Source of the DNA: Alphaproteobacteria bacterium
GTDB lineage: Bacteria > Pseudomonadota > Alphaproteobacteria > Bin95
Direction of reading: 5' to 3'
NCBI GenBank assembly: GCA_965205265.1
Contig: CBDBGH010000003.1
Span: 2,880,001-2,944,000, forward strand
DNA: 64,000 bases
This document shows positions 10,229 through 59,580 of this stretch, piece after piece. The translations under genes were made by a program, and so were the position numbers. How positions within the stretch are numbered: the first letter of the stretch is position 1; each line of letters begins with the position of its first letter. Below the pieces are notes generated by a model. That model was given only the letters and a program-made list of their open reading frames with translations. It was not told the DNA's origin and searched no databases.

Positions 10229-10323
10229 TGGCGGAGGAGAGTGGGAGTCGAACCCACCTGGCAGCGATGCGCCGCCGCAGCGGTTTTGAAGACCGAGCCG
10301 GCCACCGGACCGGATTCCCCTCC
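10229..10323 (-). tRNA. selC: tRNA-Sec (anticodon UCA)
   Basis: 95-nt t[11 protein letters not shown]...CTTCAAA...GGTTCGACTCC...CTCCGCCA with TCA anticodon, long variable arm and encoded CCA. Confidence 0.93.
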
Positions 10324-38101: not shown

Positions 38102-38178
38102 GCGCCCTTAGCTCAGCTGGATAGAGCAGCGGACTTCTAATCCGCAGGTCGGAGGTTCGAGTCCTCCAGGGCGCGCCA
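38102..38178 (+). tRNA. tRNA-Arg (anticodon UCU)
   Basis: GCGCCCTTAGCTCAGCTGGATAGAGC...CTTCTAA...GGTTCGAGTCC...GCCA, 77 nt. Confidence 0.96.
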
Positions 38179-46030: not shown

Positions 46031-46138
46031 TGCTCCGGGCCGACCGATAACGATAATATGTGGGGCTTATATGGATAGGTTGACAACAGGTTTGGGAGGC
46101 TTCGCACCTTCTCTCCGGCGTCCAACCCGCCCCCATAT

Positions 46139-46226
46139 CGTCATACCCGGACTTGTTCCGGGTATCCATGCGGCCGTCCGGCGGCAGCGGTGGAGAGAGA
46201 TACCCGGAACAAGTCCGGGTATGACG
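46139..46226. repeat. REP-like palindromic unit (same family as 23156-23242)
   Basis: CGTCATACCCGGACTTGTTCCGGGTATC ... GATACCCGGAACAAGTCCGGGTATGACG. Confidence 0.88.
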
Positions 46227-46350
46227 GAGGGGACGTGACGGAGGGGGCGTTGAGGTATGACGGAAGAAATGTCGTCGGTCTCCCCCGTCAACCTATCTTT
46301 GCAATCTCCTAATACGTTCATAAAATTCTGTTCTGATTCCTGAATATATA

Positions 46351-46378
46351 TTGACAACTTGAAAATATATGCTATAAC
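46351..46378 (+). promoter_or_regulatory. Putative sigma70 promoter heading repeated element copy 1
   Basis: TTGACA-16 bp-TATAAC with extended TG, inside an AT-rich patch. Confidence 0.6.
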
Positions 46379-46870
46379 GGACTACAAGAAAGAAGCGGCA
46401 TCCGCGGGTCCGCTTCGTTTTCGCCGTTCGCGCCGGCGCGAAAAAAGCCCCCGATTCGGCCAATGGGCGAAGTGCACCCTGCGTCCGTCTCGCGCACGCG
46501 GGCGCGCCCGGGCAATCAGGCGCGCGAACCGCGCCGCCGCGAAACGCGCGCCCACGGGCGCGGGCGCCGGCGCGCAGGATACGCGCGAATTAGGGTTCCG
46601 CCGCTCCGGCAAGCCGGGCGGCAGGAAGGACGGAACGAAATGGAACGAAACGGTATGGTGGAACGGCATGCAGGATGCGGAGGGACAGGGCCGGCGGCCG
46701 TGCGGCCCGAAAAGCCCTTGCCGGATCGAGAGAGGGCCCACCCCGGCTCTCCCTTGGCCAAGCGAAGGAGGGGGAGTCGCGGAAGGACCGGCCTCATGCC
46801 CGAACGGGCAATTGCTTATGCGTCATACGCATGCAAAACATGACATCCCATGACACGCTGCAAACTCCCG

Positions 46871-46997
46871 GCGTCGTCCCGGACGGCGCGGAGCGTCGAT
46901 CCGGGACCTCGTGCAACAGGGCGATCCTTCGTCCGGAGACCCGGCTCGGCGCTGGCGCGCCGTCCCCCGCTTTCGCGAGGGCAAGCCGGGATGACGC
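46871..46997. repeat. Second REP-like family unit nested in element copy 1
   Basis: Terminal inverted repeat GCGTCGTCCCGG / CCGGGATGACGC with internal hairpins. Confidence 0.6.
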
Positions 46998-47261
46998 AAG
47001 AGGGGTGCGGGCTTCCGGCTGCAAGACAACGCCGCGAAATCCCGCCCCATGCCCGAAAGGGCTGTCGCCTATGCATCGCCCGCATGGAGATCATGACATC
47101 GCATGACAGGCCCGGCATGTCCCGGCATCCGGCTGCGCGCTCGTCCGTTTCGGGCCGCGACTGGCCGTATCCGGCAGACATATCGACGGATAACCGTTGT
47201 TCCCCGATGCGTCCGTTATCCGTTATCGTAATGCCTATTCGATCCTAGGCCGGAGAGAACG

Positions 47262-48371
47262 ATGCCGCAGGACACAGCAGGCCCCGGCGGACACGCCGAA
47301 AGGCCGAAATGGTTCGGTTATCTGCAACTTGCCGTCATTCTCGGCGCGATCGCCGTTGCGCTCTATTTCGCCCGGGCTCCGGAGCGGGTCGAGCGCATCG
47401 ACAGGTCGGCGCTGGAGACGCAGGAAAGGCGGCCTGTCGTCAGCGTCGTCCGGCCGACGCCCACGGAGCAGGCGCTGACGCTTCGCCTGACCGGCTCCGT
47501 CGTGCTGAAGGAAAAGGCGACGGTGGTATCGGAGGTCGTCGGGCGCGTCGTCTGGGTCTCGCCGAAATTCGAGCCGGGCGGGTCTATAGAGGCCAATGAG
47601 GTGTTCATCCGGATCGACCCCGAGGAATACGAACTCAGGGTTGAAGAAGCGAGGCTGGCAGTAGCGGAACTCGAACATGACATGAGCGGGAAGGAAGCCC
47701 GGGGCGAAGACGCGGCGGGCCTGGCCCTGAAGCTGGAAAAGGCGCGCGTGGCGCTTCGGCTGGCGGAGTTGCAGCTTCGCAGGACGAACATTTCCTTTCC
47801 CTTCGATGCCCGCGTGATTTCATCGAGCGTCGAGGTCGGCGAGCTTGCCGGCCCGGCGGAGACGGTCGGCAAGACCGCATCGCTGGGCCGCGTCTATCGG
47901 CCCGGCTCCATCCGCGTGGCGGCCCCGATCGAGCAGCGGGACCTCAGGCATCTCGCCCCGGTGGTCGGGCGGACCGCCGAAGTCCGCACCAGGACGGGCA
48001 TCTTCAGGGCGAAAGTCGCAGCCGTCTCCTCCGTCGTGGCGGCCAAAAGCCGGCTCGCCTCGCTTTTCCTCAATTTTTCGGACGACCTGCCTGCCAGTTC
48101 CCTGCCTCTCCCCCGCACCTTCGCCGAGATCGTCATTGCCGGGCCGGAACACAGCGGCGTCTATGTGTTGCCGGACGCGGCCGCGCAGGCCAGCGACCGG
48201 GTCTGGGTCGTCAGGAACGGCGCGCTCAACTCGGTCGAGCCGCGGATTCTGGGCAGGATCGACGGCGGATGGGTGGTGGAAGCCTTCGATGCGGGCGACG
48301 GCGTCGTTCTCGGCACCCTGCCGGGAGCCCGCGAGGGCCTTGCCGTGACCGCCGCGAAACCGCAGGCATAG
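47262..48371 (+). CDS. RND periplasmic adaptor (membrane fusion protein)
   Basis: N-terminal TM helix, SEVVGRVVWV, SFPFDARV; upstream of an RND gene. Confidence 0.85.
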   Translation: MPQDTAGPGGHAERPKWFGYLQLAVILGAIAVALYFARAPERVERIDRSALETQERRPVVSVVRPTPTEQALTLRLTGSVVLKEKATVVSEVVGRVVWVSPKFEPGGSIEANEVFIRIDPEEYELRVEEARLAVAELEHDMSGKEARGEDAAGLALKLEKARVALRLAELQLRRTNISFPFDARVISSSVEVGELAGPAETVGKTASLGRVYRPGSIRVAAPIEQRDLRHLAPVVGRTAEVRTRTGIFRAKVAAVSSVVAAKSRLASLFLNFSDDLPASSLPLPRTFAEIVIAGPEHSGVYVLPDAAAQASDRVWVVRNGALNSVEPRILGRIDGGWVVEAFDAGDGVVLGTLPGAREGLAVTAAKPQA

Positions 48372-48381
48372 GGGGCGCGGC

Positions 48382-51300
48382 ATGAGCAACAACGACGCGG
48401 GCGGAGGCGCCGGCAGGACCGGAACGCCTGCGCCGCGCGGCCCGATCGCCTAGTTTGCGGCGAACCCCGTCGCCGCCAATCTTCTGATGGTCTTCCTGAT
48501 CGCCGCCGGTGCGATCGCCGGCTCGCAGCTCGTGGTCCAGAACTACCCGGAATTCGACGCGCGCCGTATTGCCGTCAAGATCCCGTCGCCCGGCGCATCG
48601 CCGAGGGAAGTGCAGGAGGACGTGGTCCGCCGGGTCGAGGAAGCGATTGTCGGCATATCCGGCGTCAGCCGGGTGGTCAGCACGGCGAAGGAAGGCCTCG
48701 GCCTGATCGACGTGGAACTCGAGACCTTTGCCGATGACGAGGCGGTCCTGACCGATGTCGAAAGCGCCATCGACACCATAGAGAACTTTCCGCCTCCGAC
48801 CGCGGAACGGCCGAAGGTCTCCCTTCTCAGATGGCGGAACGATGTCGTGACGGTTGCGGTTTCGTCCGCCTCGGCGACGGAAGCGGGCCTTCGGCTCGCG
48901 GCGGAGAATTTGCGCGACTCGCTGCTGGCCCTGCCCAAGGTCTCCCATATCGAGTTCCAGGGCGGGCGCGACCGGGAGATCGCGATAGAGCTGAGCGAGG
49001 AGGACCTGCGGCGAAACCGGCTCCAGATAGCCGACATCAGGCGGGCGATCCGGCGCGCTTCGCTCAATCTGACCTTCGGAGAGTTGCGGACCGATGCAGG
49101 CGGCGTCGTGCTCCAGGTCGTGGCGAAGCGGAAATACAGCAGGGAATTCAAGGACATACCGCTTATCACCCGACTCGATGGAACGGTGGTGACGCTGGGC
49201 GATGTCGCCAGGATTCGCGATGGATTCGTCGATGAAAATGTCCTGACCGAGCTTGACGGCACGCCGGCCGTATTTCTGCGGATAAGCGCCACGGGCAGGC
49301 AATCGACCAAGGAGGTCCGGAACATTGTCGTCGGGTTTCTCGAGAGCTACAGCCCGCCCGGGCATGTTTCGGTCGAAGTCTGGGACGACAAGGTCGATCT
49401 GACGGTCGAGCGGCTGACGCTGATTCTGGGGAACGCCGTGATCGGCGCGGTCCTGGTGTTCATCTGCCTGGTCGCGGTGTTCGACCTTCGGCTGGCGTTC
49501 TGGACCGCCTTCGGCATTCCCCTGGCCTTTGTCGGATCGCTGATTTTCTTCACGCCGGCCGACCTGACGCTGAACATGGGCACCCTGTTCGCGTTCTTCC
49601 TGATGGTCGGCATCGTGGTGGACGACGCCGTTGTCGTGGGCGAGAGCATCGCGACGGAAAGGAGCCGCGGCGGGACGGCGCTCGGCGCTGCGATTGCCGG
49701 GGCGCGGGCCGTTGCAGGGCCGCTGGTTGTCGGCGCGGCCACCACGATGATCGCGCTGGTCCCCCTGCTGTTCATCAACGAAGGCACCTGGCAGATGGTC
49801 CGGGTCATCCCCTGGGTGGCGCTGTTCGTGCTGGCGGTCTCGCTGGTGGAGGCGTTCTTCATCCTGCCGGCGCATCTCTCGCATGACAGGCCCTGGAGCG
49901 CGCCGCCGCTGAGCGGCTGGCAAGGGGCGGTGCGCGGCTGGCTCGACGGCGTTCGCGACAGCGTGGTGGCCGCCACCGTTTCCTGGTCGGTGCGCCATGT
50001 CTGGACGGCGCTCGGCATCGGCATCCTCATTGTGGTCTGCGCGGTGCTGCTTCTGCGCTACCACGAGGTGCGGGTCCTGTTCGCGGAGGCGCGGGCGAGC
50101 GTTTCCAACACGGTGCAGGTGGAGCTGCGCCTGCCGGCCGGCTCGCCCTTCGAGGCGACGCTTGCCGCCGCCGAGCGTTTCAGGGATGCCGCCGAGGGCG
50201 TGAACGAGGACCTGGAAGGCACGTCGGTCAAGTCGGTCAGCATCGCGGTCGGCAAGATCCTGTCCACCCGGCCCGGTGACGCCGAACTGTCGGGCGACCA
50301 CCTGGCGACAGTAAGGGTCCACCTTTACCGCCGCCCGGTCCGCATAGCGCAGCCGAGCGAGGTGGAACGCGCCTTGCGGGCCCGCGTCGGCGACGTTTCG
50401 AGCCTCGAACATGTGGAATATGTGACCAGCAGGAGCAAGCTCAGGCCGAATCTCGCCTATTCGATACGCCATGACGACCCGGAGGTGCTGCAGGACGCAG
50501 CGCGGAAACTGCGTTCCGCCCTCGCCTCGATACACGGCGTTTACGGGGTTTACGACAATCTCTCGCCCGGCAAGCGGCAGCTCGAGATAGAACTGACGCC
50601 GGCCGGCAAGGCGGCCGGGCTGTCGCCGGCGCTGCTGGGCGCGCAATTGCGTGCCCGGCTTCACGGCGCCGAAGCGCAGCGCATCCAGCGCGGCCGCGAG
50701 GAAATCGAGGTCGTTGTCAGATATCCCGCGGAACGCCGCCGCAGCCTGAAGGAACTGGCCGGGATGCGCATAGACCGGCCCGGCGGGGGCGAGGTGCCGC
50801 TCTCCCTGGTCGCAACGCTCACCGAAAGGCAGGAACTGGCCGAGCTGACGCGGATCGACGGCAAGCCGGCCGTCATCGTGGAGGCGAAGGCGGACGCCGC
50901 GGTCATCACGCCGATCCAGGCCCGCCGGCTGATAGAGGAAGGCGTCGCGCAGGAGCTGCGCGCCGCGCATCCCGGCATCGCGGTAGAGCGGGACGGCGGG
51001 GCGCGGAACGAGCGGCGGGTGATGGAAACGCTGGCCATGCTGGTGCCGCTTGCGCTGATCGCGATGTATGCGGTCATGGCGGCGTTCCTGCGCAGCTACT
51101 GGAAGCCGCTGGTCGCCGCGGCAGGAATCCCGGCCGCCTTCGCCGGCGCGGTGCTGATGCATTGGATACTCGGCTGGGACTTCAGCTTCATGTCGGTGTT
51201 CGGGATCGTCGCCGTGTCGGGCGTGGTCGTGAACGATGCGCTGGTGCTGCTCGACCGCTACAACATCATCCGCCGGGAGAACGACGCCCTGCCGGCGATC

Positions 51301-51522
51301 GCCGCCGCGGCGGCCGCCACGCGCCACCGCTTCCGCGCCGTGCTGCTCACCAGCCTGACGACGGTGCTGGGCCTCTCGCCCCTGCTCTACGAGCGCAGCG
51401 ACGCCCTGCTCTTCCTGGTGCCGTTCGTCGCCAGCATGTTGGGCGGGCTCGTGCTGGCGGGCATGTTCGTCCTGTTCCTCCTGCCGGCGATGGTGATGAT
51501 CGCCGACGGCAGGCACGAATAG
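48382..51522 (+). pseudogene. RND efflux permease with an in-frame TAG at codon 24 (or an N-truncated product starting at 48487)
   Basis: ATG 48382 ...GPIA-TAG(48451)-FAANPVAANLLM...; the remaining 1011 aa are intact with GIVVDDAVVVGE. Confidence 0.7.
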
Positions 51523-51545
51523 GCCGGCCGACGGCGAAACGCGGT

Positions 51546-51574
51546 TTGACAGCCGGCGGGCCGGGCCCTAGTTT
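51546..51574 (+). promoter_or_regulatory. Putative sigma70 promoter for rpmG
   Basis: TTGACA-17 bp-TAGTTT. Confidence 0.6.
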
Positions 51575-51609
51575 GCCCGCCGTTCCAGTTTGCAGCGGAG
51601 GCGCATGCG

Positions 51610-51777
51610 ATGGCCAAGCCGGCAACCGTCATGGTGAAGCTCGTCAGCACGGCCGACACGGGCTATTTCTACGTCACCAAGAAGAACCCGCGGACCAAGA
51701 CCGAGAAACTCGAGATCCGCAAATTCGACCCCATCGCGCGCAAGCATGTCGTCTTCAAGGAACAGAAGATGAAATAG
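51610..51777 (+). CDS. rpmG: 50S ribosomal protein L33 (55 aa, absent from the ORF track)
   Basis: [55 protein letters not shown]. Confidence 0.96.
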
Positions 51778-51832
51778 CGGCGGCAGCCGCTTCGCCTGCT
51801 GCGGGCGCGGGCCGGCTATCGGACGGGATTTC

Positions 51833-53002
51833 ATGGAAACCGGCGAGGTCGCGGCCGTTTGCCGGAATTGCGGCCGTCCCGCCGCCGCCCCTGTTCCGAC
51901 ACGCTGCCCGTCCTGCCGTTCCCCCCGCTTCGCCGCCCATCCCGAGATCGCCCGCGTGGGCATCGCGCATCTCGACTGCGACGCCTTCTACGCCGCCATC
52001 GAGAAGCGGGACGACCCGGACCTCGCCGACCGCCCGGTGGTGATCGGCGGCGGGCGGCGCGGCGTCGTCGCCGCCGCCTGCTATGTCGCGCGGCGTTTCG
52101 GCGTGCGCTCGGCCATGGCCATGTACAAGGCGCTCGAAGCCTGCCCCCATGCGGTCGTGCTGAGGCCCGACATGGCGAAATACCGCAAGGTGGGGCGCGA
52201 GGTTCGGGGCCTGATGCGCGAAGCCACGCCGCTGGTCGAGCCGATCTCCATCGACGAGGCGTTTCTGGACCTCGGCGCGCATGCCCTGCCGGCCGCTGCC
52301 GCCGTCCGCCTTGTCCGGCGGATCGAGGACGAGATCGGCATCACGGTCTCGGTCGGACTCGCCGCCAACAAGTTCCTCGCCAAGATCGCCTCGGACCTCG
52401 ACAAGCCGCGCGGCTTCGCCGTGATCGGTCCCGAGGAAGCGCCGGCGTTCCTGGCGGCGAAGCCGGTCACGATCATCCCGGGCGTCGGCGCCGCGATGGC
52501 CCGGCGGCTCCGGGCCGAGGGCGTGCTCGCGGTCGCCGACCTGCGCCGCTGGACGGAAGCGGAGATGACGGCCCGGTTCGGCACGTTCGGGCGCCGCCTC
52601 TACTCGTTCGCCCGCTGCCGCGACGACCGGCCCGTCCAGCCGGTGAGCGAGACCCGCAGCATTTCCGCCGAAACCACCTTCGAGAACGACCGCAGCGGCT
52701 ATGACGACCTCGCCCGCGCCCTGCCGCCGCTGGCCCGGACCGTCGCGACCCGCCTCGACACCGCCGGCCTTGCCGCCGGCTCCGTCGTGCTGAAGCTCAA
52801 GACGGCAGACTTCCGCACCCATACCCGCAGCCATGCGCTCGCCTTCGCCACCCAGCGCGCGGACCGCCTGCTGGAAGAGGCGGAGCGGCTACTCCGGCCC
52901 GAAGCGGACGGCCGCGCCTTCCGCCTGATCGGGCTCGGCGCGGCCGACCTCGCGCCGCCGGATGCCGCCGACCCGCCGGAACTCTTCGCCGGCGCACGCT
53001 GA
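51833..53002 (+). CDS. dinB: DNA polymerase IV (Y family)
   Basis: HLDCDAFYAAIE, SIDEAFLD, KIASDLDKPRG; N-terminal CxxC..CxxC. Confidence 0.94.
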   Translation: METGEVAAVCRNCGRPAAAPVPTRCPSCRSPRFAAHPEIARVGIAHLDCDAFYAAIEKRDDPDLADRPVVIGGGRRGVVAAACYVARRFGVRSAMAMYKALEACPHAVVLRPDMAKYRKVGREVRGLMREATPLVEPISIDEAFLDLGAHALPAAAAVRLVRRIEDEIGITVSVGLAANKFLAKIASDLDKPRGFAVIGPEEAPAFLAAKPVTIIPGVGAAMARRLRAEGVLAVADLRRWTEAEMTARFGTFGRRLYSFARCRDDRPVQPVSETRSISAETTFENDRSGYDDLARALPPLARTVATRLDTAGLAAGSVVLKLKTADFRTHTRSHALAFATQRADRLLEEAERLLRPEADGRAFRLIGLGAADLAPPDAADPPELFAGAR

Positions 53003-53101
53003 TGGCGAATTGCGCCTTCCGGGCAACGGCCTTGCCGTCCGCGCCCATCCGGTGTTCCCTTGCCCGAAACCGACGATGACAAGGGAAGGGAACCCCGACC
53101 G

Positions 53102-53869
53102 ATGGACCTGCGTCTGGCCGGAAAGACCGTGCTTATCACCGGCGCCTCGAAAGGCATCGGGCTCGCCTGCGCCGAACTCTTCGCGGAGGAAGGCTGCGAC
53201 CTGCATCTGGTGGCGCGCACCGTCGCCGACCTCGAACGGGCGCGCGACGCCATCCGCGGCCGGCACAATGTCGCCGTCACGATCCATCCGCTCGACCTTT
53301 CCGACGGCGGCAATGTCAAGCGCCTGGTCGCGGAGACCGGCGAGGGGCTGGACATCGTCGTCAACAATGCAGGCGCCATTCCCGGCGGCCCGATCCACAT
53401 GATCGACGAGGAGCGCTGGCGCGAGGCCTGGGACCTCAAGGTGTTCGGCTACATCAACATGTGCCGGGAGCTCTATCCGGTCTTCCAGGCGAAGGGAGCG
53501 GGCGTGATCGTCAATGTCGTGGGCACCGGCGGCGAGCGGCCGAGCGCGGGCTATATCGCGGGCGCAGGGGGCAATGCCGGCCTCATCGCGTTTACCCGCG
53601 CGCTCGGCGGCAAGAGCCCCGATGACGGTTTTCGCATTGTCGGCGTCAATCCGGGCCCGATCCTGACCGAGCGCCTGACCACCATCATGCGCGCGCAGGC
53701 GCTGGACAGGTTCGGCGACGAGGAGCGCTGGGAAGAATGCATGCCGACCGCCCCGCCGCCGGGCGAGCCGGAGGACTGCGCCGACCTCGTGGTCTTCCTC
53801 GCCTCGGAGCGAGCGAAGCATATTTCCGGTACTGTCGTCACCATCGACGGCGGCGCCGTCTCCCGCTAG
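53102..53869 (+). CDS. Short-chain dehydrogenase/reductase
   Basis: TGASKGIG, NNAG. Confidence 0.88.
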   Translation: MDLRLAGKTVLITGASKGIGLACAELFAEEGCDLHLVARTVADLERARDAIRGRHNVAVTIHPLDLSDGGNVKRLVAETGEGLDIVVNNAGAIPGGPIHMIDEERWREAWDLKVFGYINMCRELYPVFQAKGAGVIVNVVGTGGERPSAGYIAGAGGNAGLIAFTRALGGKSPDDGFRIVGVNPGPILTERLTTIMRAQALDRFGDEERWEECMPTAPPPGEPEDCADLVVFLASERAKHISGTVVTIDGGAVSR

Positions 53870-53884
53870 GAGCCCCATGACGCC

Positions 53885-54499
53885 ATGAGCAGCACTCTCG
53901 AGTTCTTCTTCGACGTCTCCAGTCCCTGGACCTATCTCGCCTTCCACCGTATCGAGGATTTTTGCGCCGAGCTCGGGCTGGACCTTGTCTGGAAGCCGTT
54001 CCTGGTGGGCGGCGTGTTCAACAAGGTCAATCCGAGCGTCTATCAGCGCCGCGAGAACCCCGTCCCGCCCAAGGACGCCTATTATCGCAAGGACATGGAC
54101 GACTGGGCGCGCTACGAGGGCATCGTCATCGGCAAGCCGACGGTCTTCCCGGTCAACTCGGTCAAGGCCATGCGCGGCTGCTTCCACGCCATCGAAGAAG
54201 GCCGGGTGTCCGCCTTCGCGCGCGGCTGCTTCGAGGCCTATTGGCGCGACGACCGCGATATCGGCCAGGAGGACGTGCTGGCGGAAGTCGTGGAATCCTC
54301 CGGACTCGACAAGCAGCGCTTCTTCGCCGCCATCGCCGATCCGGGGATCAAGCAAAAGCTGTTCGACACGACCGACGAGCTGATCGAGCGGGGCGGTTTC
54401 GGCTCGCCCACTTTCTTCCTCGACGGCGACGACATGTATTTCGGCAATGACCGCTTGGAGCTGATCCGCGCGGCAGTGGAAAGGAAACGCAATGGCTGA
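53885..54499 (+). CDS. 2-hydroxychromene-2-carboxylate isomerase / GST-kappa (DsbA-like) family
   Basis: FFFDVSSPWTY, GGFGSPTF, FGNDRL. Confidence 0.88.
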   Translation: MSSTLEFFFDVSSPWTYLAFHRIEDFCAELGLDLVWKPFLVGGVFNKVNPSVYQRRENPVPPKDAYYRKDMDDWARYEGIVIGKPTVFPVNSVKAMRGCFHAIEEGRVSAFARGCFEAYWRDDRDIGQEDVLAEVVESSGLDKQRFFAAIADPGIKQKLFDTTDELIERGGFGSPTFFLDGDDMYFGNDRLELIRAAVERKRNG

Positions 54500-55775
54500 A
54501 CCTCTGGTCACCGCCGAGGAAACGGCGCTGCGCGAGACCGCGCGCCGCGTGCTGCCCGCCGGCAGCTTCGGCAATGTGCCGTTCGAGACCGTCATCCGCT
54601 CCGGGCAAGGCAGCCATGTCTGGGATGTCTCGGGCAATGAATATATCGACTACCTGCTCGGCTCCGGGCCGATGCTGGCGGGGCACTGCCATCCGGAGGT
54701 CGTCGAGGCGGTAATGGAGCAGGTCGGGCGCGGCACGACCTTCTTCGCCAACAACGAGCACGGCATCCGGCTTGCCGAGGCCGTGATCGAGCGCGTCGCC
54801 TGCGCTGAAAAGGTGCGCTTCGTCTCCAGCGGCACGGAAGCCACGTTCTACGCCATGCGGATCGCGCGCGCCTTTCGCGGCCGCGACAAGATCCTGAAAT
54901 TCGAGGGCGGCTTCCACGGCATGAACGACTATGCGCTCATGTCGATGGCGCCGAAGCGGCCCGGCAACTTCCCGCAGGCGGCGCCGGACAGCGCCGGCAT
55001 TCCCGCAGCCGTTCGCGACGAGGTGCTGATCGCGCCTTTCAACGACGCCGAAACGGCCGTGCAGCTTATCCGCGACCATGCCGACGAACTGGCCGCCGCC
55101 ATCGTCGAGCCGTTCCAGCGGCTGATCCCGCCGAAGCCCGGCTTCCTCGAAGCGCTCCGCGAGGTCACGGAGGAAACCGGCGTCGTGCTGATCTTCGACG
55201 AGGTGGTGACCGGCTTCCGGTTCGCGCGGGGCGGGGCGCAGGAGCGCTACGGCGTCACGCCCGACATGTGCTCGCTCGGCAAGGTGGTGGGCGGCGGCTA
55301 TCCGCTGGCGGCCGTCGCCGGGCGCGACGACATCATGGCGCATTTCGACGCCGGGCGCGTGGACGGCGACCGCTTTGCGCAGCAGATCGGCACGCTCAGC
55401 GGCAATCCGGTCGCGGCCGTCGCCGGCCTCAAGACGCTGGAGGTCCTGGGCCGGCCCGGGGTCTATGAGCGCCACGAGCAGATCGGCCGGGCCCTGATCG
55501 ACGGGCTGGGAACGCTGCTCGAGGAGAGCGGCCACGAGGGGCAGGTGCTGGGCTCGCCGCCCATGTTCGATGTCATCTTCGCCGGCGGCGAGGTCGCCGA
55601 CTACCGCGCCACCATGCGCGCCGACGCGGCCAGGACCAAGGCCTTCAACGCCGGGCTGCGCGCCAGGGGCATCTTCAAGGGCGAGAGCAAATTCTACCTC
55701 TCGGTGGTGCACAGCGACGAGGACATCGCCAACACGCTCGACGCCGCGCGCGAGTCGCTCAAGGAGCTGTCCTGA
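54492..55775 (+). CDS. Class III PLP aminotransferase (glutamate-1-semialdehyde aminomutase-like)
   Basis: [33 protein letters not shown]. Confidence 0.88.
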
Positions 55776-57414
55776 CCTCCCGCGCCCTGATCCGGGCCCA
55801 GTCGTCGCGGAGCCCGATCGTGCGGTTGAAGCCGCCGTCGGGGTCGGCGGCGAAATAGCCGAGGCGCTCGAACTGCACCGGCCTGCCGGGCTCCAGGCCG
55901 GCCACGCCGGGCTCGAGGCGGCAATCCTCCAGCACCTCCAGCGAGTCGGGGTTCAGGTCTTCGAGGCCCGCCGGCTCGTCAGAGGCGAAGAGCGGACCGT
56001 AGAGCCGGACCGGGGCGCGCTCGGCATGGGCGGCGGAGACCCAGTGGATCGTCGCCTTCACCTTGCGCCCGTCCGGCGCGTTGCCGCCGCGCGTCTCCGG
56101 ATCGTAGCGGCAGCGTAACTCGACGATCTCGCCGTCCTCGTCCTTCACCGCTTCCAGGCAGGTGAGGAAAAAGGCGTAGCGCAGCCGCACCTCCCGGCCG
56201 GGCGCGAGGCGGAAGAACTTCCGGGGCGGGTCTTCCATGAAGTCGTCGCGCTCGATCCAGAGCTCGCGCGAGAACGGGACCTTGCGGCTGCCCGCATCCG
56301 GGTCGCCCGGATTGTTGGCGGCCTCCAGCCACTCCGTCTCGCCCTCGGGGTAGTTTTCGATCGTGACCCTGAGCGGCCTCAGCACGGCCATGCGCCGCTC
56401 GGCGGTGCGGTTCAGCCGTTCGCGCACGCAATGGTCGAGCAGCGCCGCCTCCACGCGGCCGGCGCTCTTCGAGATCGCGAGCCGGGAGACGAAGTCGCGC
56501 ACGGCCTCCGCCGGCACGCCCCGCCGGCGAAGGCCGCGCAGGGTCGGCATGCGCGGGTCGTCCCAGCCCGCCACATGGCCTTCTTCGACGAGGCGGGTCA
56601 GTACGCGCTTGGAGAGGATCGTCCCGGTCATGTCGAGCCGCGCGAACTCGTACTGGCGCGGGCGCGACGCGGCCGGCACGCGCTCCAGCAGCCAGTCGTA
56701 GAGCGGGCGGTGGTCGGCGAACTCCAGCGTGCAGAGCGAGTGCGTCACGCCCTCGATGGCGTCCGACTGGCCGTGCGCATAGTCGTAGGTCGGGTAGATG
56801 CGCCAGGCCTCGCCCGTGCGCGGATGCGCATGGTCTAGGATGCGGTAGAGCACCGGATCGCGCATATTGATATTGCCCGAGCCCATGTCGATGCGCGCGC
56901 GCAGCACACAGGCGCCGGGAGGAAACGCGCCGGCGCGCATCCGGCGCAGCAGGTCGAGGCTCTCGGCCGCCGGCCGGTCGCGCCAGGGGCCGGGCCGGCC
57001 AGGCTCCGTCAAGGTGCCGCGCGTCGCCCGGATTTCCTCCGCCGACTGCTCATCCACATAGGCATGGCCCGTCTCGACCAGATGCTCCGCCCACTCGTAG
57101 AGCGTCTCGAAATAGTCGGAGGCATGGACCGGCTCGCCCGCCCACTCGAAGCCGAGCCAGCGCACGTCCTCCTGGATGGCATCGATATAGGCCTGCTCCT
57201 CTTTCGCCGGGTTGGTGTCGTCGAAGCGCAGGTTGCAATGCCCGCCGAACTCCGCCGCCACGCCGAAATTGAGGCAGATCGACTTGGCGTGGCCGATATG
57301 CAGGAAGCCGTTGGGCTCCGGCGGGAAGCGGGTGACGACCGACGCGGCCCGGCCCTCCGCAAGGTCGGCGCGGATGCGGCTGCGGATGAAGTCCCCGCCC
57401 GTGGGCGCGTCCAT
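55759..57414 (-). CDS. glnS: Glutaminyl-tRNA synthetase
   Basis: [56 protein letters not shown]. Confidence 0.95.
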
Positions 57415-57431
57415 GGAACCGGCGCTCCCTC

Positions 57432-58265
57432 TCAGAACGGCGATGTGCCGCGCGTCACGGTGCGGTGCAGCACCCGGGCTTCGCGGGCGCGCTCCTCGGC
57501 GCGGTGCAGCAGGCAGCGATTGTCCCACATCAGCAGGTCGCCCGGCTGCCACGGATGGCGATAGACGAAACGGTCCTCCGTGCTGTGCGCCTCGATCTCC
57601 TCCAGCAGCGCCTCGCCCTCCTTCCTGTCCATGCCGAGAATGTGCGAGGCGTGGTTGCCGATGAAGAACGCCTCCAAGCCGCTCTCGGGGTGGCGCCGCA
57701 CCAGCGGGTGCGCGACCGGCGGATAAACCGACGCCTCCTCCGGACTCGCTTCGCGCTCGCCGGATTTCCGGCAGGAACGCACCCAGTCATGCACCACCTT
57801 CATCCCCCGGAACGCCTCCCGCCGTTCCGGCGAATACGCCTCGAAGGCGCGGTTCATGTTGGCGAACTCGGTCTGTCCGCCTTGCGCCGGCACCTTCACG
57901 GCATAGAGGAAGGTCGCGCAGGACGGCACCGTCCGGTAGGACTTGTCCGAGTGCCAGCGCAGGTTCCCCTTCGCCGCCGCCTCGGGTCTCGGCCGCCCGT
58001 CGGCATCCAGGTTCGAGACCGTGTGGACGAGCGAGACGTCACCGCCCTTGTTGCGCTGGATATGCACGTCGAGCGGGCCGAACTGGAGCGTCGCCGCCAA
58101 TTGCGCCGGCTTGTCCAGCTCCTGGTCCCGGAAGCACAGGACATGGCGGTCCAGGAAGGCTTCGTTGAGCGCGGCCCGGTCGCCGTCGCCGAGAGGTTCG
58201 CGCAGATCGACGCCCCGGACCTCGGCTGCCAGCACATCGGAAAGCGGTTGGATGGCGACTGTCAT
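57432..58265 (-). CDS. TauD/TfdA family Fe(II)/2-oxoglutarate dioxygenase
   Basis: [27 protein letters not shown]. Confidence 0.92.
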
Positions 58266-58333
58266 GGGCTCCAATCTAGCCGAGCGCCGGGCAGAGCGGT
58301 AGCGCCCTGGATCGCCGCCTCGGCGCCGAAAGC

Positions 58334-58360
58334 AAAACGCCGGGCCCTGGGGCCCGGCGT
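58334..58360 (-). terminator. Intrinsic terminator after ibpA
   Basis: GC-rich hairpin ACGCCGGGCC...GGCCCGGCGT followed by a short T run on the minus strand. Confidence 0.6.
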
Positions 58361-58394
58361 CCGGTTGCGTGAATGTAGAGGGCGGTGTCGGCAA

Positions 58395-58844
58395 TCAGGC
58401 CGCTTCGAGGGTCTGCGGCGCGCCGGAGCCGATCTCGATCCGGCGCGGCTTCAGCGCCTCGGGCACCTCACTCACCAGCTCGACGGCGAGCATGCCGTTC
58501 TCCAGCTTCGCGCCGGCGGCCTTCACATGCTCGGCGAGGCGGAAGGTGCGCCGGAACTGCCGGGTCGCGATGCCGCGATGCAGGAAGACGCGGCTGTCGT
58601 CCTGGCTCCGGACCTTGCCGGCGATCACGAGCTCGTCGCCCTTCGCCTCGATCGCAAGGTCCTCTTCGCCGAAGCCGGCCACCGCCATCTCGATGCGGTA
58701 GGTGTGCTCGCCGGTCTTGACGATGTTGCAGGGCGGATAGTGCTCCGCCGTCGCGTCGGCGTTCATGACGCGGTCGAAGTTCTTCATCAGCCGTTCGAAG
58801 CCGATGGTGGACCGCAGGAGAGGGGAGAAATCGAATGCCGTCAT
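58395..58844 (-). CDS. ibpA: Small heat shock protein (Hsp20, IbpA-like)
   Basis: FDFSPLLRSTIGFERL, YPPCNI, AVAGF, LENGML, PEALKPRRIEI. Confidence 0.94.
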   Translation of the reverse strand: MTAFDFSPLLRSTIGFERLMKNFDRVMNADATAEHYPPCNIVKTGEHTYRIEMAVAGFGEEDLAIEAKGDELVIAGKVRSQDDSRVFLHRGIATRQFRRTFRLAEHVKAAGAKLENGMLAVELVSEVPEALKPRRIEIGSGAPQTLEAA

Positions 58845-58945
58845 CGGTCATCCTCCTTGAGAAGCGATTGTCGATGTCTCTGGGCCCGCCGCTCATCGGC
58901 CGGACCCGCCGTCCTCCGCTCCCGTCATCCGGCGAGCCTCGGACA
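58842..58945 (-). ncRNA. ROSE-like RNA thermometer in the ibpA 5' UTR
   Basis: UCGCU motif placed to pair with the AGGA Shine-Dalgarno (AATCGCTTCTCAAGGAGGAT), preceded by GC hairpins. Confidence 0.7.
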
Positions 58946-58951
58946 ACCCCC

Positions 58952-58979
58952 AGATGGGGAGGCGCAGCGGCGATTCAAG
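58952..58979 (-). promoter_or_regulatory. Sigma32 (RpoH) promoter of ibpA
   Basis: CTTGAA-14 bp-CCCCATCT on the minus strand. Confidence 0.8.
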
Positions 58980-59059
58980 ACCCCGGAGCGATTCTTTCGA
59001 CACCAGCCGCATGGCCGACGCCCGCAGCCCGTCTCTCCGGCGCGCGGAGACCGGCTTGG

Positions 59060-59580
59060 TTGTCATGGCGTGTCATGTTTTGTCATGCGGCGTCCCGCGT
59101 CTCCCCGCGATGCGTCATGAAATGTCATGATCCGCATGCCCATGACGCATAAGCGATGGTCGTTTCGGGCATGACGCCATCCTTTCGGGCAGGAACTGCG
59201 GGTATTCCGTCCGGTTTCCCCGGCTTCGCGTCGTCGGCATGGGCCTTTCCTTTCGATCCGTCTTCGTTCCAGCCTGTCCGCCGCCGGCCGGCCAGCGGCG
59301 GGACCCTGATTCGCGCGTATCCTGCGCGGGCGCCTGTGCGCGGGTAGGCGCGCGTTTCGCGGCGGCGCGAATCGTGCGCCTGATTGCCCGCGCGCGCCCG
59401 CGTGTGAGCCAACCGCAGGACGCACCTGTCCTGTCAGTTTCACAGGGGCTTTTTTTCGCGCCGGCGCGAAACGGGCAAGCAAACGGCTCCCAGGACGCCG
59501 CTTCCTTCCCTGCGCCCTATCTAGTGTCTGATTTTTATGATGTCAATCTACAATTAGAATTTTTTCTGATTTAATGAACA
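59060..59580 (-). repeat. Uncharacterised dispersed non-coding element, copy 2
   Basis: Homologous to 46315-46855; TTGACA(59546-59541)-17 bp-TAGATA, palindrome at 59455-59470, 61-bp module at 59113-59173, three extra CATGACA at 59061-59087. Confidence 0.8.

What the first reader, a model, noticed from the sequence alone, without database searches (positions are those of the whole stretch)
46315..59580. Unannotated promoter-headed non-coding element present twice in inverted orientation (46315-47110 on +, 59060-59580 on -)
Seen: the two largest gene-free gaps are homologous and share one order of parts. (a) An AT-rich patch beginning GTTCAT. (b) TTGACA plus a -10-like box (TATAAC in copy 1, TAGATA in copy 2). 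(c) A 5' hairpin kept despite sequence change (GAAGCGG/CCGCTTC vs AAGCGGC/GCCGTTT). (d) The perfect palindrome TTCGCGCCGGCGCGAA followed by A-run-GCCCC. (e) A conserved core CGGGCAATCAGGCGC...CGCCGCCGCGAAACGCGCGCC...CGCGCAGGATACGCGCGAATYAGGGTYCCGCCGCT. (f) A variable linker. (g) A CATGAC-repeat module. The flanking genes are unrelated and no transposase or integrase is in the window. I do not recognise it as a known RNA or IS family. Inference: a multi-copy family of long transcribed structured RNAs, or a non-autonomous mobile unit with its own promoter and protein-binding array. This is the best candidate here for an undescribed system.
Basis: partly seen in the sequence, partly recalled or inferred. 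Interest (0 to 1): 0.85.

Follow-up and report, generated by a model that had tools for sequence, protein, structure and literature searches.

The report
Dispersed small-terminase cassettes with phased repeats
The two look-alike stretches are gene-less members of a family of about 70 small cassettes scattered around this bacterium's chromosome; intact members carry one of two unrelated phage-type DNA-packaging helper genes, one of which appears to have been taken out of the host's own domesticated phage-particle gene cluster, so the cassettes may mark where chromosomal DNA is loaded into virus-like particles.

Summary
Each has a promoter-like head, a ~200-nt leader, a ribosome site with a variable gene slot, and CATGAC repeats phased at one helical turn. 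The window copies have lost their gene. Intact copies carry cargo A (SF6-type small terminase, 7 copies) or cargo B (9 copies). The scan found this family before elsewhere in this genome; some notes reported no large terminase. That is wrong: an intact one, missed by five Pfam models, lies in a LexA-boxed podovirus-like particle cluster, which the scan noted separately. New here: cargo B is the gene that sits just before terL in that cluster in repeat-free relatives; the slot is empty in 13 of 14 assessable genus genomes. Distant relatives' cassettes have LexA boxes. Best reading (0.42): dispersed terS-plus-pac-like modules steering a gene-transfer-agent-like particle. Against: arrays occur in genomes where this terL was not found, and the route to new sites is unknown. 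A structured-RNA family is weakly supported.

The parts
46316..46378 (+). Copy 1 head: GTTC, AT-rich tract with a second TTC about 20 bp on, TTGACA (46351-46356), -10-like TATAAC (46373-46378)
   Evidence: head conserved across copies; a head profile hits elements in 73 of 84 genome hits; not called by the strict scan
46392..46416 (+). Copy 1 5' hairpin of the leader
   Evidence: some compensatory changes across 53 non-redundant copies
46417..46602 (+). Copy 1 GC-rich leader, including the palindrome (46427-46442) and the near-invariant core (from 46509)
   Evidence: Profile hit C3:2926392-2926602; alignment; no covariation in the centre
46603..46795 (+). Copy 1 gene slot: 3' hairpin, GAAC-rich tract, ribosome-site-like purines and a decayed, non-conserved reading frame with a REP-like insertion
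   Evidence: 67-aa frame unlike cargo A or B; no tblastn hit to either cargo here
46796..46855 (+). Copy 1 tail module I: ATGCCCGAA ... TATGC ... CATGC ... CATGAC x2 at 10-bp period
46856..47048 (+). REP-like palindromic insertion between the two tail modules
   Evidence: Sequence; multi-copy coverage; the REP label is recalled, not tested
47049..47108 (+). Copy 1 tail module II: CATGAC x2 (47092, 47102)
59518..59579 (-). Copy 2 head: GTTC (59579), TTGACA (59546-59541), TAGATA (59523-59518)
   Evidence: same head at the same mnmE-ibpA site in G014, G005, G007; not called by the strict scan
59297..59503 (-). Copy 2 leader: 5' hairpin, palindrome (59470-59455), core (from 59390)
   Evidence: Profile hit C3:2939504-2939297
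59173..59296 (-). Copy 2 gene slot: 3' hairpin, one-mismatch LexA-like box GAAC-N7-GATC (59269-59255), ribosome site, short decayed frame (41 aa)
59061..59172 (-). Copy 2 tail: ATGCCCGAA module then five CATGAC units with spacings 10, 32, 10, 10
46062..46300 (+). Adjacent but separate MITE-like repeat with an internal palindromic repeat; not part of the cassette
   Evidence: 15 genome hits of 200 nt or more; inner palindrome 207 hits

Best explanation
The window's two stretches are cargo-deleted members of a DNA cassette family (head - leader - gene slot - phased CATGAC array) that acts as a dispersed 'small terminase plus pac-like site' module. SHOWN: architecture and copy number; two unrelated cargo genes; cargo A is an SF6/SPP1-type small terminase with the HTH domain; cargo B descends from the gene that lies directly before terL in the host's single-copy podovirus-like particle cluster; that slot is empty in cassette-bearing genomes; both cargos and the cluster are under purifying selection; the cluster has LexA boxes. 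INFERRED: the pre-terL gene is a small terminase (position, size, helical hairpin); cargo A's HTH binds the 10-bp-phased array; the cassette-made proteins recruit the resident large terminase (or that of a visiting phage) so that packaging starts at the ~70 arrays; gene-less copies such as the two here are served in trans; transferred fragments recombine into relatives and copies exchange parts by ectopic recombination. NOT EXPLAINED: how a cassette first enters a new site.
For: Cargo A: PF03592 E 4e-13, HTH aligns to solved small terminases 4zc3, 2cmp, 3zqp; 7 intact plus 5 truncated copies, all 54-77 nt behind a leader; 30 of 30 PF03592 loci fetched from the genus have the leader, 23 of 30 show the array, 6 of the 7 without end at a contig edge. 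Cargo B: phrog_31793; in 23 class-wide loci examined the next gene is a terminase by Pfam in 12, by PHROG in 3 of 3 further tested, and looks the same by eye in 21; profile match to B 94%, E 8e-8. G000 has an intact terL, E 9e-190, also 14 of 16 other genus genomes, inside a portal-capsid-tail-terL cluster. The slot holds the gene in repeat-free G013 and 7 of 7 sister-genus genomes but is empty in the 13 other assessable genus genomes. 25 of 25 non-slot B loci examined (of 90 matches, 30 fetched) have the leader; cassette B plus the G013 gene form one clade, 99/98. dN/dS 0.13-0.19 (A), 0.24-0.48 (B), 0.19 (capsid), 0.46 (terL). CATGAC spacings peak at 10, 20/21, 32/33, 42/43, 52/53; control hexamers do not. 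Perfect GAAC-N7-GAAC boxes at the cluster in 14 of 15 genus genomes and at 7 of 10 array loci of distant genomes. Precedents: LexA-controlled SaPI terS (PMC3152322, passages), PICI terS directing host-DNA packaging (PMC12597102, passages), T4 pac at the 3' end of the terS gene (PMC10893049, passages).
Against: 3 of 5 distant array-rich genomes gave no hit to this terL; only 1 of those 3 had another terL by one model; completeness not given. G003 keeps terL with an empty slot yet has no B and almost no arrays; G011 has arrays but no B; G008 and G014 have arrays but no A hit, so neither cargo is needed in every genome, and the cluster may persist without any small terminase. The slot loss is probably one ancestral event, so the 13 genomes are not independent. 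Cargo A belongs to a different phage lineage than the T7-like terL. Cargo B has no HTH, and lacks the third helix seen in the class-wide family. Heads in G000 lack the LexA box, so co-induction with the cluster is not evident. No particles, binding or transcription were shown. No phage carrying the leader was found.
Confidence: 0.42

Rival explanations
1. Selfish DNA cassettes that need no particle: the terminase-derived ring protein binds the phased arrays, pairs two arrays and promotes recombination or copying with host enzymes. Cargo B is a passenger captured once.
For: Arrays and cargo A occur where this terL was not found; copies are mosaic, with identity between sister copies ending at different points; G007's two neighbouring copies share a near-identical head from TTTGTTC on (by eye); no target duplication; T4 small terminase and its pac site support pac-pac recombination (PMC10893049, passages).
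Against: Does not explain why the second captured gene is also from the pre-terL slot, is kept under purifying selection and vanished from the cluster. No nuclease or recombinase travels with any copy examined.
Confidence: 0.3
2. Host-domesticated regulatory or chromosome-organising modules: portable promoters (SOS-controlled in the ancestor) plus binding arrays for a terminase-derived nucleoid protein.
For: Heads are conserved although neutral DNA should lose them; copy 2's site is shared by four genomes; both window copies point into the downstream gene; LexA boxes in distant relatives.
Against: The copy-1 site is empty in 6 genomes with the same flanking genes, and different subtypes lie 5' of the efflux gene in others; plasmid contigs and three genus genomes lack arrays; no replichore bias, 29 versus 38.
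Confidence: 0.16
3. A family of long structured non-coding RNAs.
For: Promoter-like head; compensatory changes in the 5' hairpin (6, 6, 0, 12 of 52 rows at four pairs) and at two pairs of the 3' hairpin (12 and 14); one contig of a related strain in a metatranscriptome covers 58395-59319.
Against: Mean folding z -1.1 and -0.55, not clearly above the opposite strand; invariant centre without covariation; the leader precedes protein genes and is absent from 9 of 9 distant cargo-A loci; RNA contigs cannot show strand or level, and DNA may be present.
Confidence: 0.1

Closest known systems
SaPI/PICI operon I small terminase with its pac site (phage satellites; lateral transduction)
   Same: A stand-alone small terminase gene without its own large terminase or capsid; PF03592-type in cargo A; LexA control of terS in SaPI (PMC3152322, passages) mirrors LexA boxes on distant cassettes; PICI terS can direct host-DNA packaging (PMC12597102, passages).
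   Different: No integrase, replication genes or att sites in the cassettes; 0.5-1.5 kb instead of about 15 kb (size recalled); about 70 copies per chromosome; two unrelated terS-type cargos in one scaffold; array at the 3' end of the gene.
SF6/SPP1 G1P small terminase (PF03592) and phage T4 gp16 with its pac site
   Same: HTH sequence match; T4 pac lies at the 3' end of the terS gene and supports recombination (PMC10893049, passages).
   Different: Not in a phage genome, not next to terL; long acidic C-terminal extension; binding to CATGAC arrays untested.
RcGTA-type gene transfer agents
   Same: Single-copy, chromosomal phage structural cluster kept under purifying selection; small gene next to terL is the small terminase in RcGTA (PMC7947584, passages).
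   Different: The cluster here is podovirus-like with a T7-like terL; RcGTA packs DNA with no discrete start sites and its terS lacks a specific DNA-binding domain (PMC7947584, passages), whereas here terS-type genes are dispersed with candidate sites.
MITEs and REP/REPIN-type dispersed repeats (recalled)
   Same: High copy number, intergenic, lineage-restricted, presence/absence at orthologous sites.
   Different: No terminal inverted repeats or target duplications found; carries promoter and genes; no RAYT/Y1 transposase hit in G000.

Membership tests
Rfam RNA families | Match at gathering threshold | tested here: not met
   only two tRNAs in the window
Structured ncRNA (new motif) | Covariation across the conserved body | tested here: not met
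   changes only in two flanking hairpins; invariant centre is uninformative; weak z-scores
Structured ncRNA (new motif) | Discrete transcript | tested here: inconclusive
   contigs only, related strains, no strand or start information
PICI/SaPI satellite | Integrase, replication module and att sites | tested here: not met
   Whole cassettes read hold one gene slot only; flanks are host genes
PICI/SaPI satellite | Own small terminase gene | tested here: met
   Cargo A PF03592, in 7 of 67 copies; absent from the two window copies
PICI/SaPI satellite | LexA control of terS | tested here: inconclusive
   Perfect boxes at 7 of 10 distant array loci and 3 of 9 distant cargo-A loci; G000 heads lack them, 20 of 67 one-mismatch boxes near the ribosome site versus 6 by shuffle
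PICI/SaPI satellite | Packaging by a helper's large terminase and capsid | not testable with these tools
   A candidate helper cluster exists; packaging needs experiment
Small terminase (cargo A) | Terminase_2 HTH domain | tested here: met
Small terminase (cargo B family, phrog_31793) | Small helical gene directly upstream of terL | tested here: met
   for the native gene; cassette copies are away from terL
Small terminase (cargo B family, phrog_31793) | Sequence or fold match to a characterised small terminase | tested here: inconclusive
   Helical hairpin model; only generic hairpin matches; Atlas lead at chance level
Small terminase (either cargo) | Ring formation, pac binding, terL stimulation | not testable with these tools
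   Needs biochemistry
MITE | Target-site duplication and sharp ends | tested here: not met
   5 of 34 copies share 6 nt or more between flanks, 4.8 by shuffle; ragged left ends
IS91/REPIN (HUH-mobilised) | Intact Y2 or Y1 transposase in the genome | tested here: not met
   Only broken Y2 fragments; no Y1 hit; one genome, two models only
Gene transfer agent (resident cluster) | Conserved single-copy head, portal, tail and terL genes under purifying selection | tested here: met
   (dN/dS on three genomes only)
Gene transfer agent (resident cluster) | Particles that carry and transfer host DNA | not testable with these tools
   No particle data

The most novel reading that the evidence does not exclude
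A gene-transfer-agent-like podoviral particle has outsourced its DNA-selection step: its small terminase left the cluster and, with a second unrelated small terminase, now rides on about 70 chromosomal cassettes whose phased arrays act as built-in packaging starts. The cassettes would be minimal satellites of a domesticated phage that spread by biasing what the particle carries.
Probability: 0.3. Interest if true: 0.92.

Novelty: categorically new. Interest (0 to 1): 0.78.

Why it matters
Gene transfer agents are described as packaging host DNA with no discrete start sites (PMC7947584, passages). A chromosome seeded with dozens of terS-plus-site cassettes would be a route to targeted transfer, and a one-gene satellite of a domesticated phage. 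The link found here makes this directly testable: sequence DNase-protected DNA after DNA damage and look for steps at the arrays. It also assigns a likely small-terminase role to an unnamed family (phrog_31793) found in 28 of 301 genomes of the class. Even on the rival readings the family fits no repeat class that I could test.

Tried and rejected
Pfam searches for a large terminase or capsid in G000 (PF03237, PF03354, PF17289, PF04466, PF05876, PF05065) all came back empty. They were false negatives, as a family-specific profile showed. Mu-like prophage terL loci in G016 and G006 carry neither leader nor cargo. IMG/VR: 0 hits for the leader motif, 3 distant terS loci for cargo A, none for cargo B. 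Complex prediction of cargo B with terL gave no answer (score 0.00); it is not used as evidence. Fold searches of the pre-terL protein found no match at E 0.001 or better and only generic hairpins; the Atlas gave leads under 0.9 only. IS91 origin was considered because of GTTC at the left end and rejected: only broken transposase pieces exist. No target duplication, no replichore bias. TGGAGTGGGCCC as a right end: present after only 11 of 85 arrays. The cluster's lead promoter is not hit by the cassette head profile, so the head is not shown to derive from it. Literature searches (listings only, except the passages cited) found no description of the cassettes or of this cluster; the library lacks most subscription papers, and no supplements were opened, so a mention in a supplementary table cannot be excluded.
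Full report
1. Observation. Both stretches and all listed parts are present at the stated coordinates. Flanks are a histone-deacetylase-family gene and an efflux adaptor for copy 1, mnmE and an Hsp20 gene for copy 2. Rfam finds nothing there. A strict sigma-70 scan calls neither promoter; weak conservation of the last -10 base is common in Alphaproteobacteria (recalled).

2. It is a large family. An iterated profile of the ~200-nt leader gives 77 hits on the main contig, 68 full-length, 67 distinct. A DNA search matched 14 of 16 other genus genomes (one, G003, only at E 4e-4), 0 of 8 other family genomes and 1 of 16 class genomes weakly. The scan had found this family before in other windows of this genome.

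3. Anatomy. Head: GTTC and a second TTC about 20 bp apart, then TTGAC and a -10-like box; a head profile hits elements in 73 of 84 cases. Leader: 5' hairpin, near-invariant GC core, 3' hairpin. Then ribosome site, ATG and a variable slot (output was partly cut). Tail: CATGAC units; a pair follows in 61 of 67 copies, and 80 of 91 arrays have a same-strand leader within 3 kb. Spacings peak at 10 (136), 20 (43), 21 (23), 32/33 (15/19), 42/43 (17/24), 52/53 (11/17); three control hexamers lack this pattern. That is one face of the DNA helix, which points to a protein-binding array (inference). The pattern CATGAC-N4-CATGAC occurs 38-379 times in 14 genus genomes, 0-2 times in G001, G003, G013 and in all 20 other family genomes, with reversed controls at 0-1.

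4. RNA reading. Folding z-scores on 40 of 53 non-redundant copies average -1.1 (5' part) and -0.55 (core), against -0.5 and -0.9 for the opposite strand. Compensatory changes occur at pairs of the 5' and 3' hairpins and one inner pair; the best-conserved helix is invariant and so uninformative. One metatranscriptome contig of a related strain covers 58395-59319, which does not show transcription. I read the leader as a 5' untranslated region with two hairpins.

5. Cargo A. Seven copies encode about 300 aa with an N-terminal Terminase_2 domain (E 4e-13; PHROG small terminase; HTH match to 4zc3, 2cmp, 3zqp). All 12 loci hit in G000 lie just behind a leader. PF03592 is found in 12 of 17 genus genomes, in several copies; 30 of 30 fetched loci have the leader and 23 the array. 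Nine more distant loci (Rhodospirillaceae or unnamed alphaproteobacterial MAGs by their record titles) have cargo A with no leader hit, but with GAAC-N7-GAA before the ribosome site, perfect in 3; one follows mnmE like copy 2. In five such genomes the array pattern occurs 76-90 times, and 7 of 10 array loci examined have a perfect GAAC-N7-GAAC over the promoter. This is the alphaproteobacterial LexA repeat (PMC3323433, passages), confirmed at both lexA genes of G000. So the ancestor was probably SOS-controlled and the leader was added later (inference). G000 heads lack the box.

6. Cargo B and the missing terminase. Nine copies encode about 198 aa with a weak phrog_31793 hit. That family is single-copy in 27 other genomes of 300 sampled (the tally includes unpublished G064, not used further). 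In 23 loci examined the next gene is a large terminase: 12 by Pfam, 3 of 3 more by PHROG phrog_38, 21 by eye. Profile comparison with B gives 94%, E 8e-8. A profile of these terminases finds an intact gene in G000 (C3:3818362-3819780, E 9e-190), in 14 of 16 other genus genomes, 10 of 10 of sister genus g2 and 0 of 10 of g3. Five Pfam terminase models and one capsid model had missed it, which contradicts earlier notes of 'no large terminase'. It lies in a cluster with repressor, portal, major head, two tail proteins, internal virion protein and a holin-like gene. Perfect LexA boxes sit at its lead or portal promoter in 14 of 15 genomes. The scan noted this cluster separately.

7. The link. In repeat-free G013 the gene overlapping the terL start is the closest non-cassette relative of B. 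The slot is also filled in 7 of 7 g2 genomes examined, but empty in the 13 other assessable genus genomes (42-165 bp; 513 bp with an unrelated frame in G011; G007 not assessable). Of 90 matches, 30 were fetched: all 25 non-slot loci have the leader, none of the 5 slot loci does; cassette B and the G013 gene form one clade (99/98; bootstrap not settled, no root test). dN/dS is 0.13-0.19 for A, 0.24-0.48 for B, 0.19 for the capsid and 0.46 for terL, the last two on three genomes. I did not see this link in the short earlier notes returned.

8. Mobility. The deacetylase-efflux gap is 140-190 bp and empty in 6 genomes; it is filled in G000 and G007; four more genomes have an element or its tail 5' of the efflux gene, one with cargo B, though their left neighbour was not within the fetched 1.5 kb (15 loci of 13 genomes). 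The mnmE-cassette-ibpA arrangement is shared by 4 of 15 loci; two more have elements with other left neighbours. G007's two copies share a near-identical head from TTTGTTC (by eye), so the head is copied with the body. Sister copies lose identity at different points on the left. There are no target duplications, no intact HUH transposase by two models and no strand bias. This fits DNA-level exchange by recombination; first entry into a site is unexplained.

9. Mechanism and doubts. Best reading (0.42): dispersed terS-plus-pac-like modules serving the resident particle or visiting phages, like a stripped SaPI operon I (PMC3152322 and PMC12597102, passages); T4 offers a pac site at the 3' end of terS with recombination activity (PMC10893049, passages). 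Against: 3 of 5 distant array-rich genomes lack this terL hit and 2 of them gave no PF17289 hit either; G003 keeps terL with no B and no arrays; G011 lacks B, G008 and G014 lack an A hit; the slot loss is likely a single event; B has no HTH and its small-terminase role rests on position, size and a helical-hairpin model. Rivals: particle-independent selfish cassette (0.30), domesticated regulatory module (0.16), RNA family (0.10).

10. Verdict. Real, multi-copy and, in six searches of an incomplete library (PMC9254644 and PMC7947584 read as passages), undescribed. It fails the tests for PICI, MITE, IS91/REPIN and Rfam membership while resembling a satellite packaging module. The two window copies are ordinary decayed members; the interest lies in the family and its tie to the particle cluster. 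Interest 0.78.

Noticed in passing
G000:C3:3817760-3828023 (L192, L193): Single-copy podovirus-like particle cluster (repressor, portal, capsid, tail tubes, holin-like gene, T7-like terL) with two perfect LexA boxes; terL-type and pre-terL genes are conserved across many alphaproteobacteria. Invisible to six Pfam models tried. Noted before by the scan.
   Followed up: yes
window 46062-46300: MITE-like repeat (15 long copies) with an inner palindromic repeat (207 hits); it often sits inside or next to cassette tails.
   Followed up: partly
G000:C3:4281564 (-): N-terminal piece of an IS91-type transposase is fused directly to a cargo-A-type tail.
   Followed up: partly
L149 and L150, ends of the terS-like ORFs: Distant orphan small-terminase genes end in different 10-bp-phased repeats, suggesting the terS-plus-phased-tail layout is wider than this family and that protein and repeat may co-vary (two cases, by eye).
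   Followed up: no
G000:C3 about 4.65-5.40 Mb: No cassettes, a second lexA, slightly lower GC, preceded by a 21-kb exact duplicate of the contig start; possible misassembly or contamination.
   Followed up: no
L243-L253 (G336-G340): LexA-headed, CATGAC-tailed cassettes of distant genomes share another conserved motif (A-run followed by a GTCTGTC-like element) in place of the GC leader.
   Followed up: no
L212:1501-1780 (G010): A short 92-aa cargo B, the length of the native pre-terL gene, behind a partial leader; a possible early capture form.
   Followed up: partly
L055, L056 (G016, G006): Mu-like prophages with their own small and large terminase genes (family labels recalled), unrelated to the cassettes.
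   Followed up: partly
window 10233-10323 (-) and 38102-38175 (+): Selenocysteine tRNA and a second tRNA.
   Followed up: no
G016:C4:521564-525068: The terL gene is split into two distant pieces in this genome, so the cluster may be decaying in some members.
   Followed up: no
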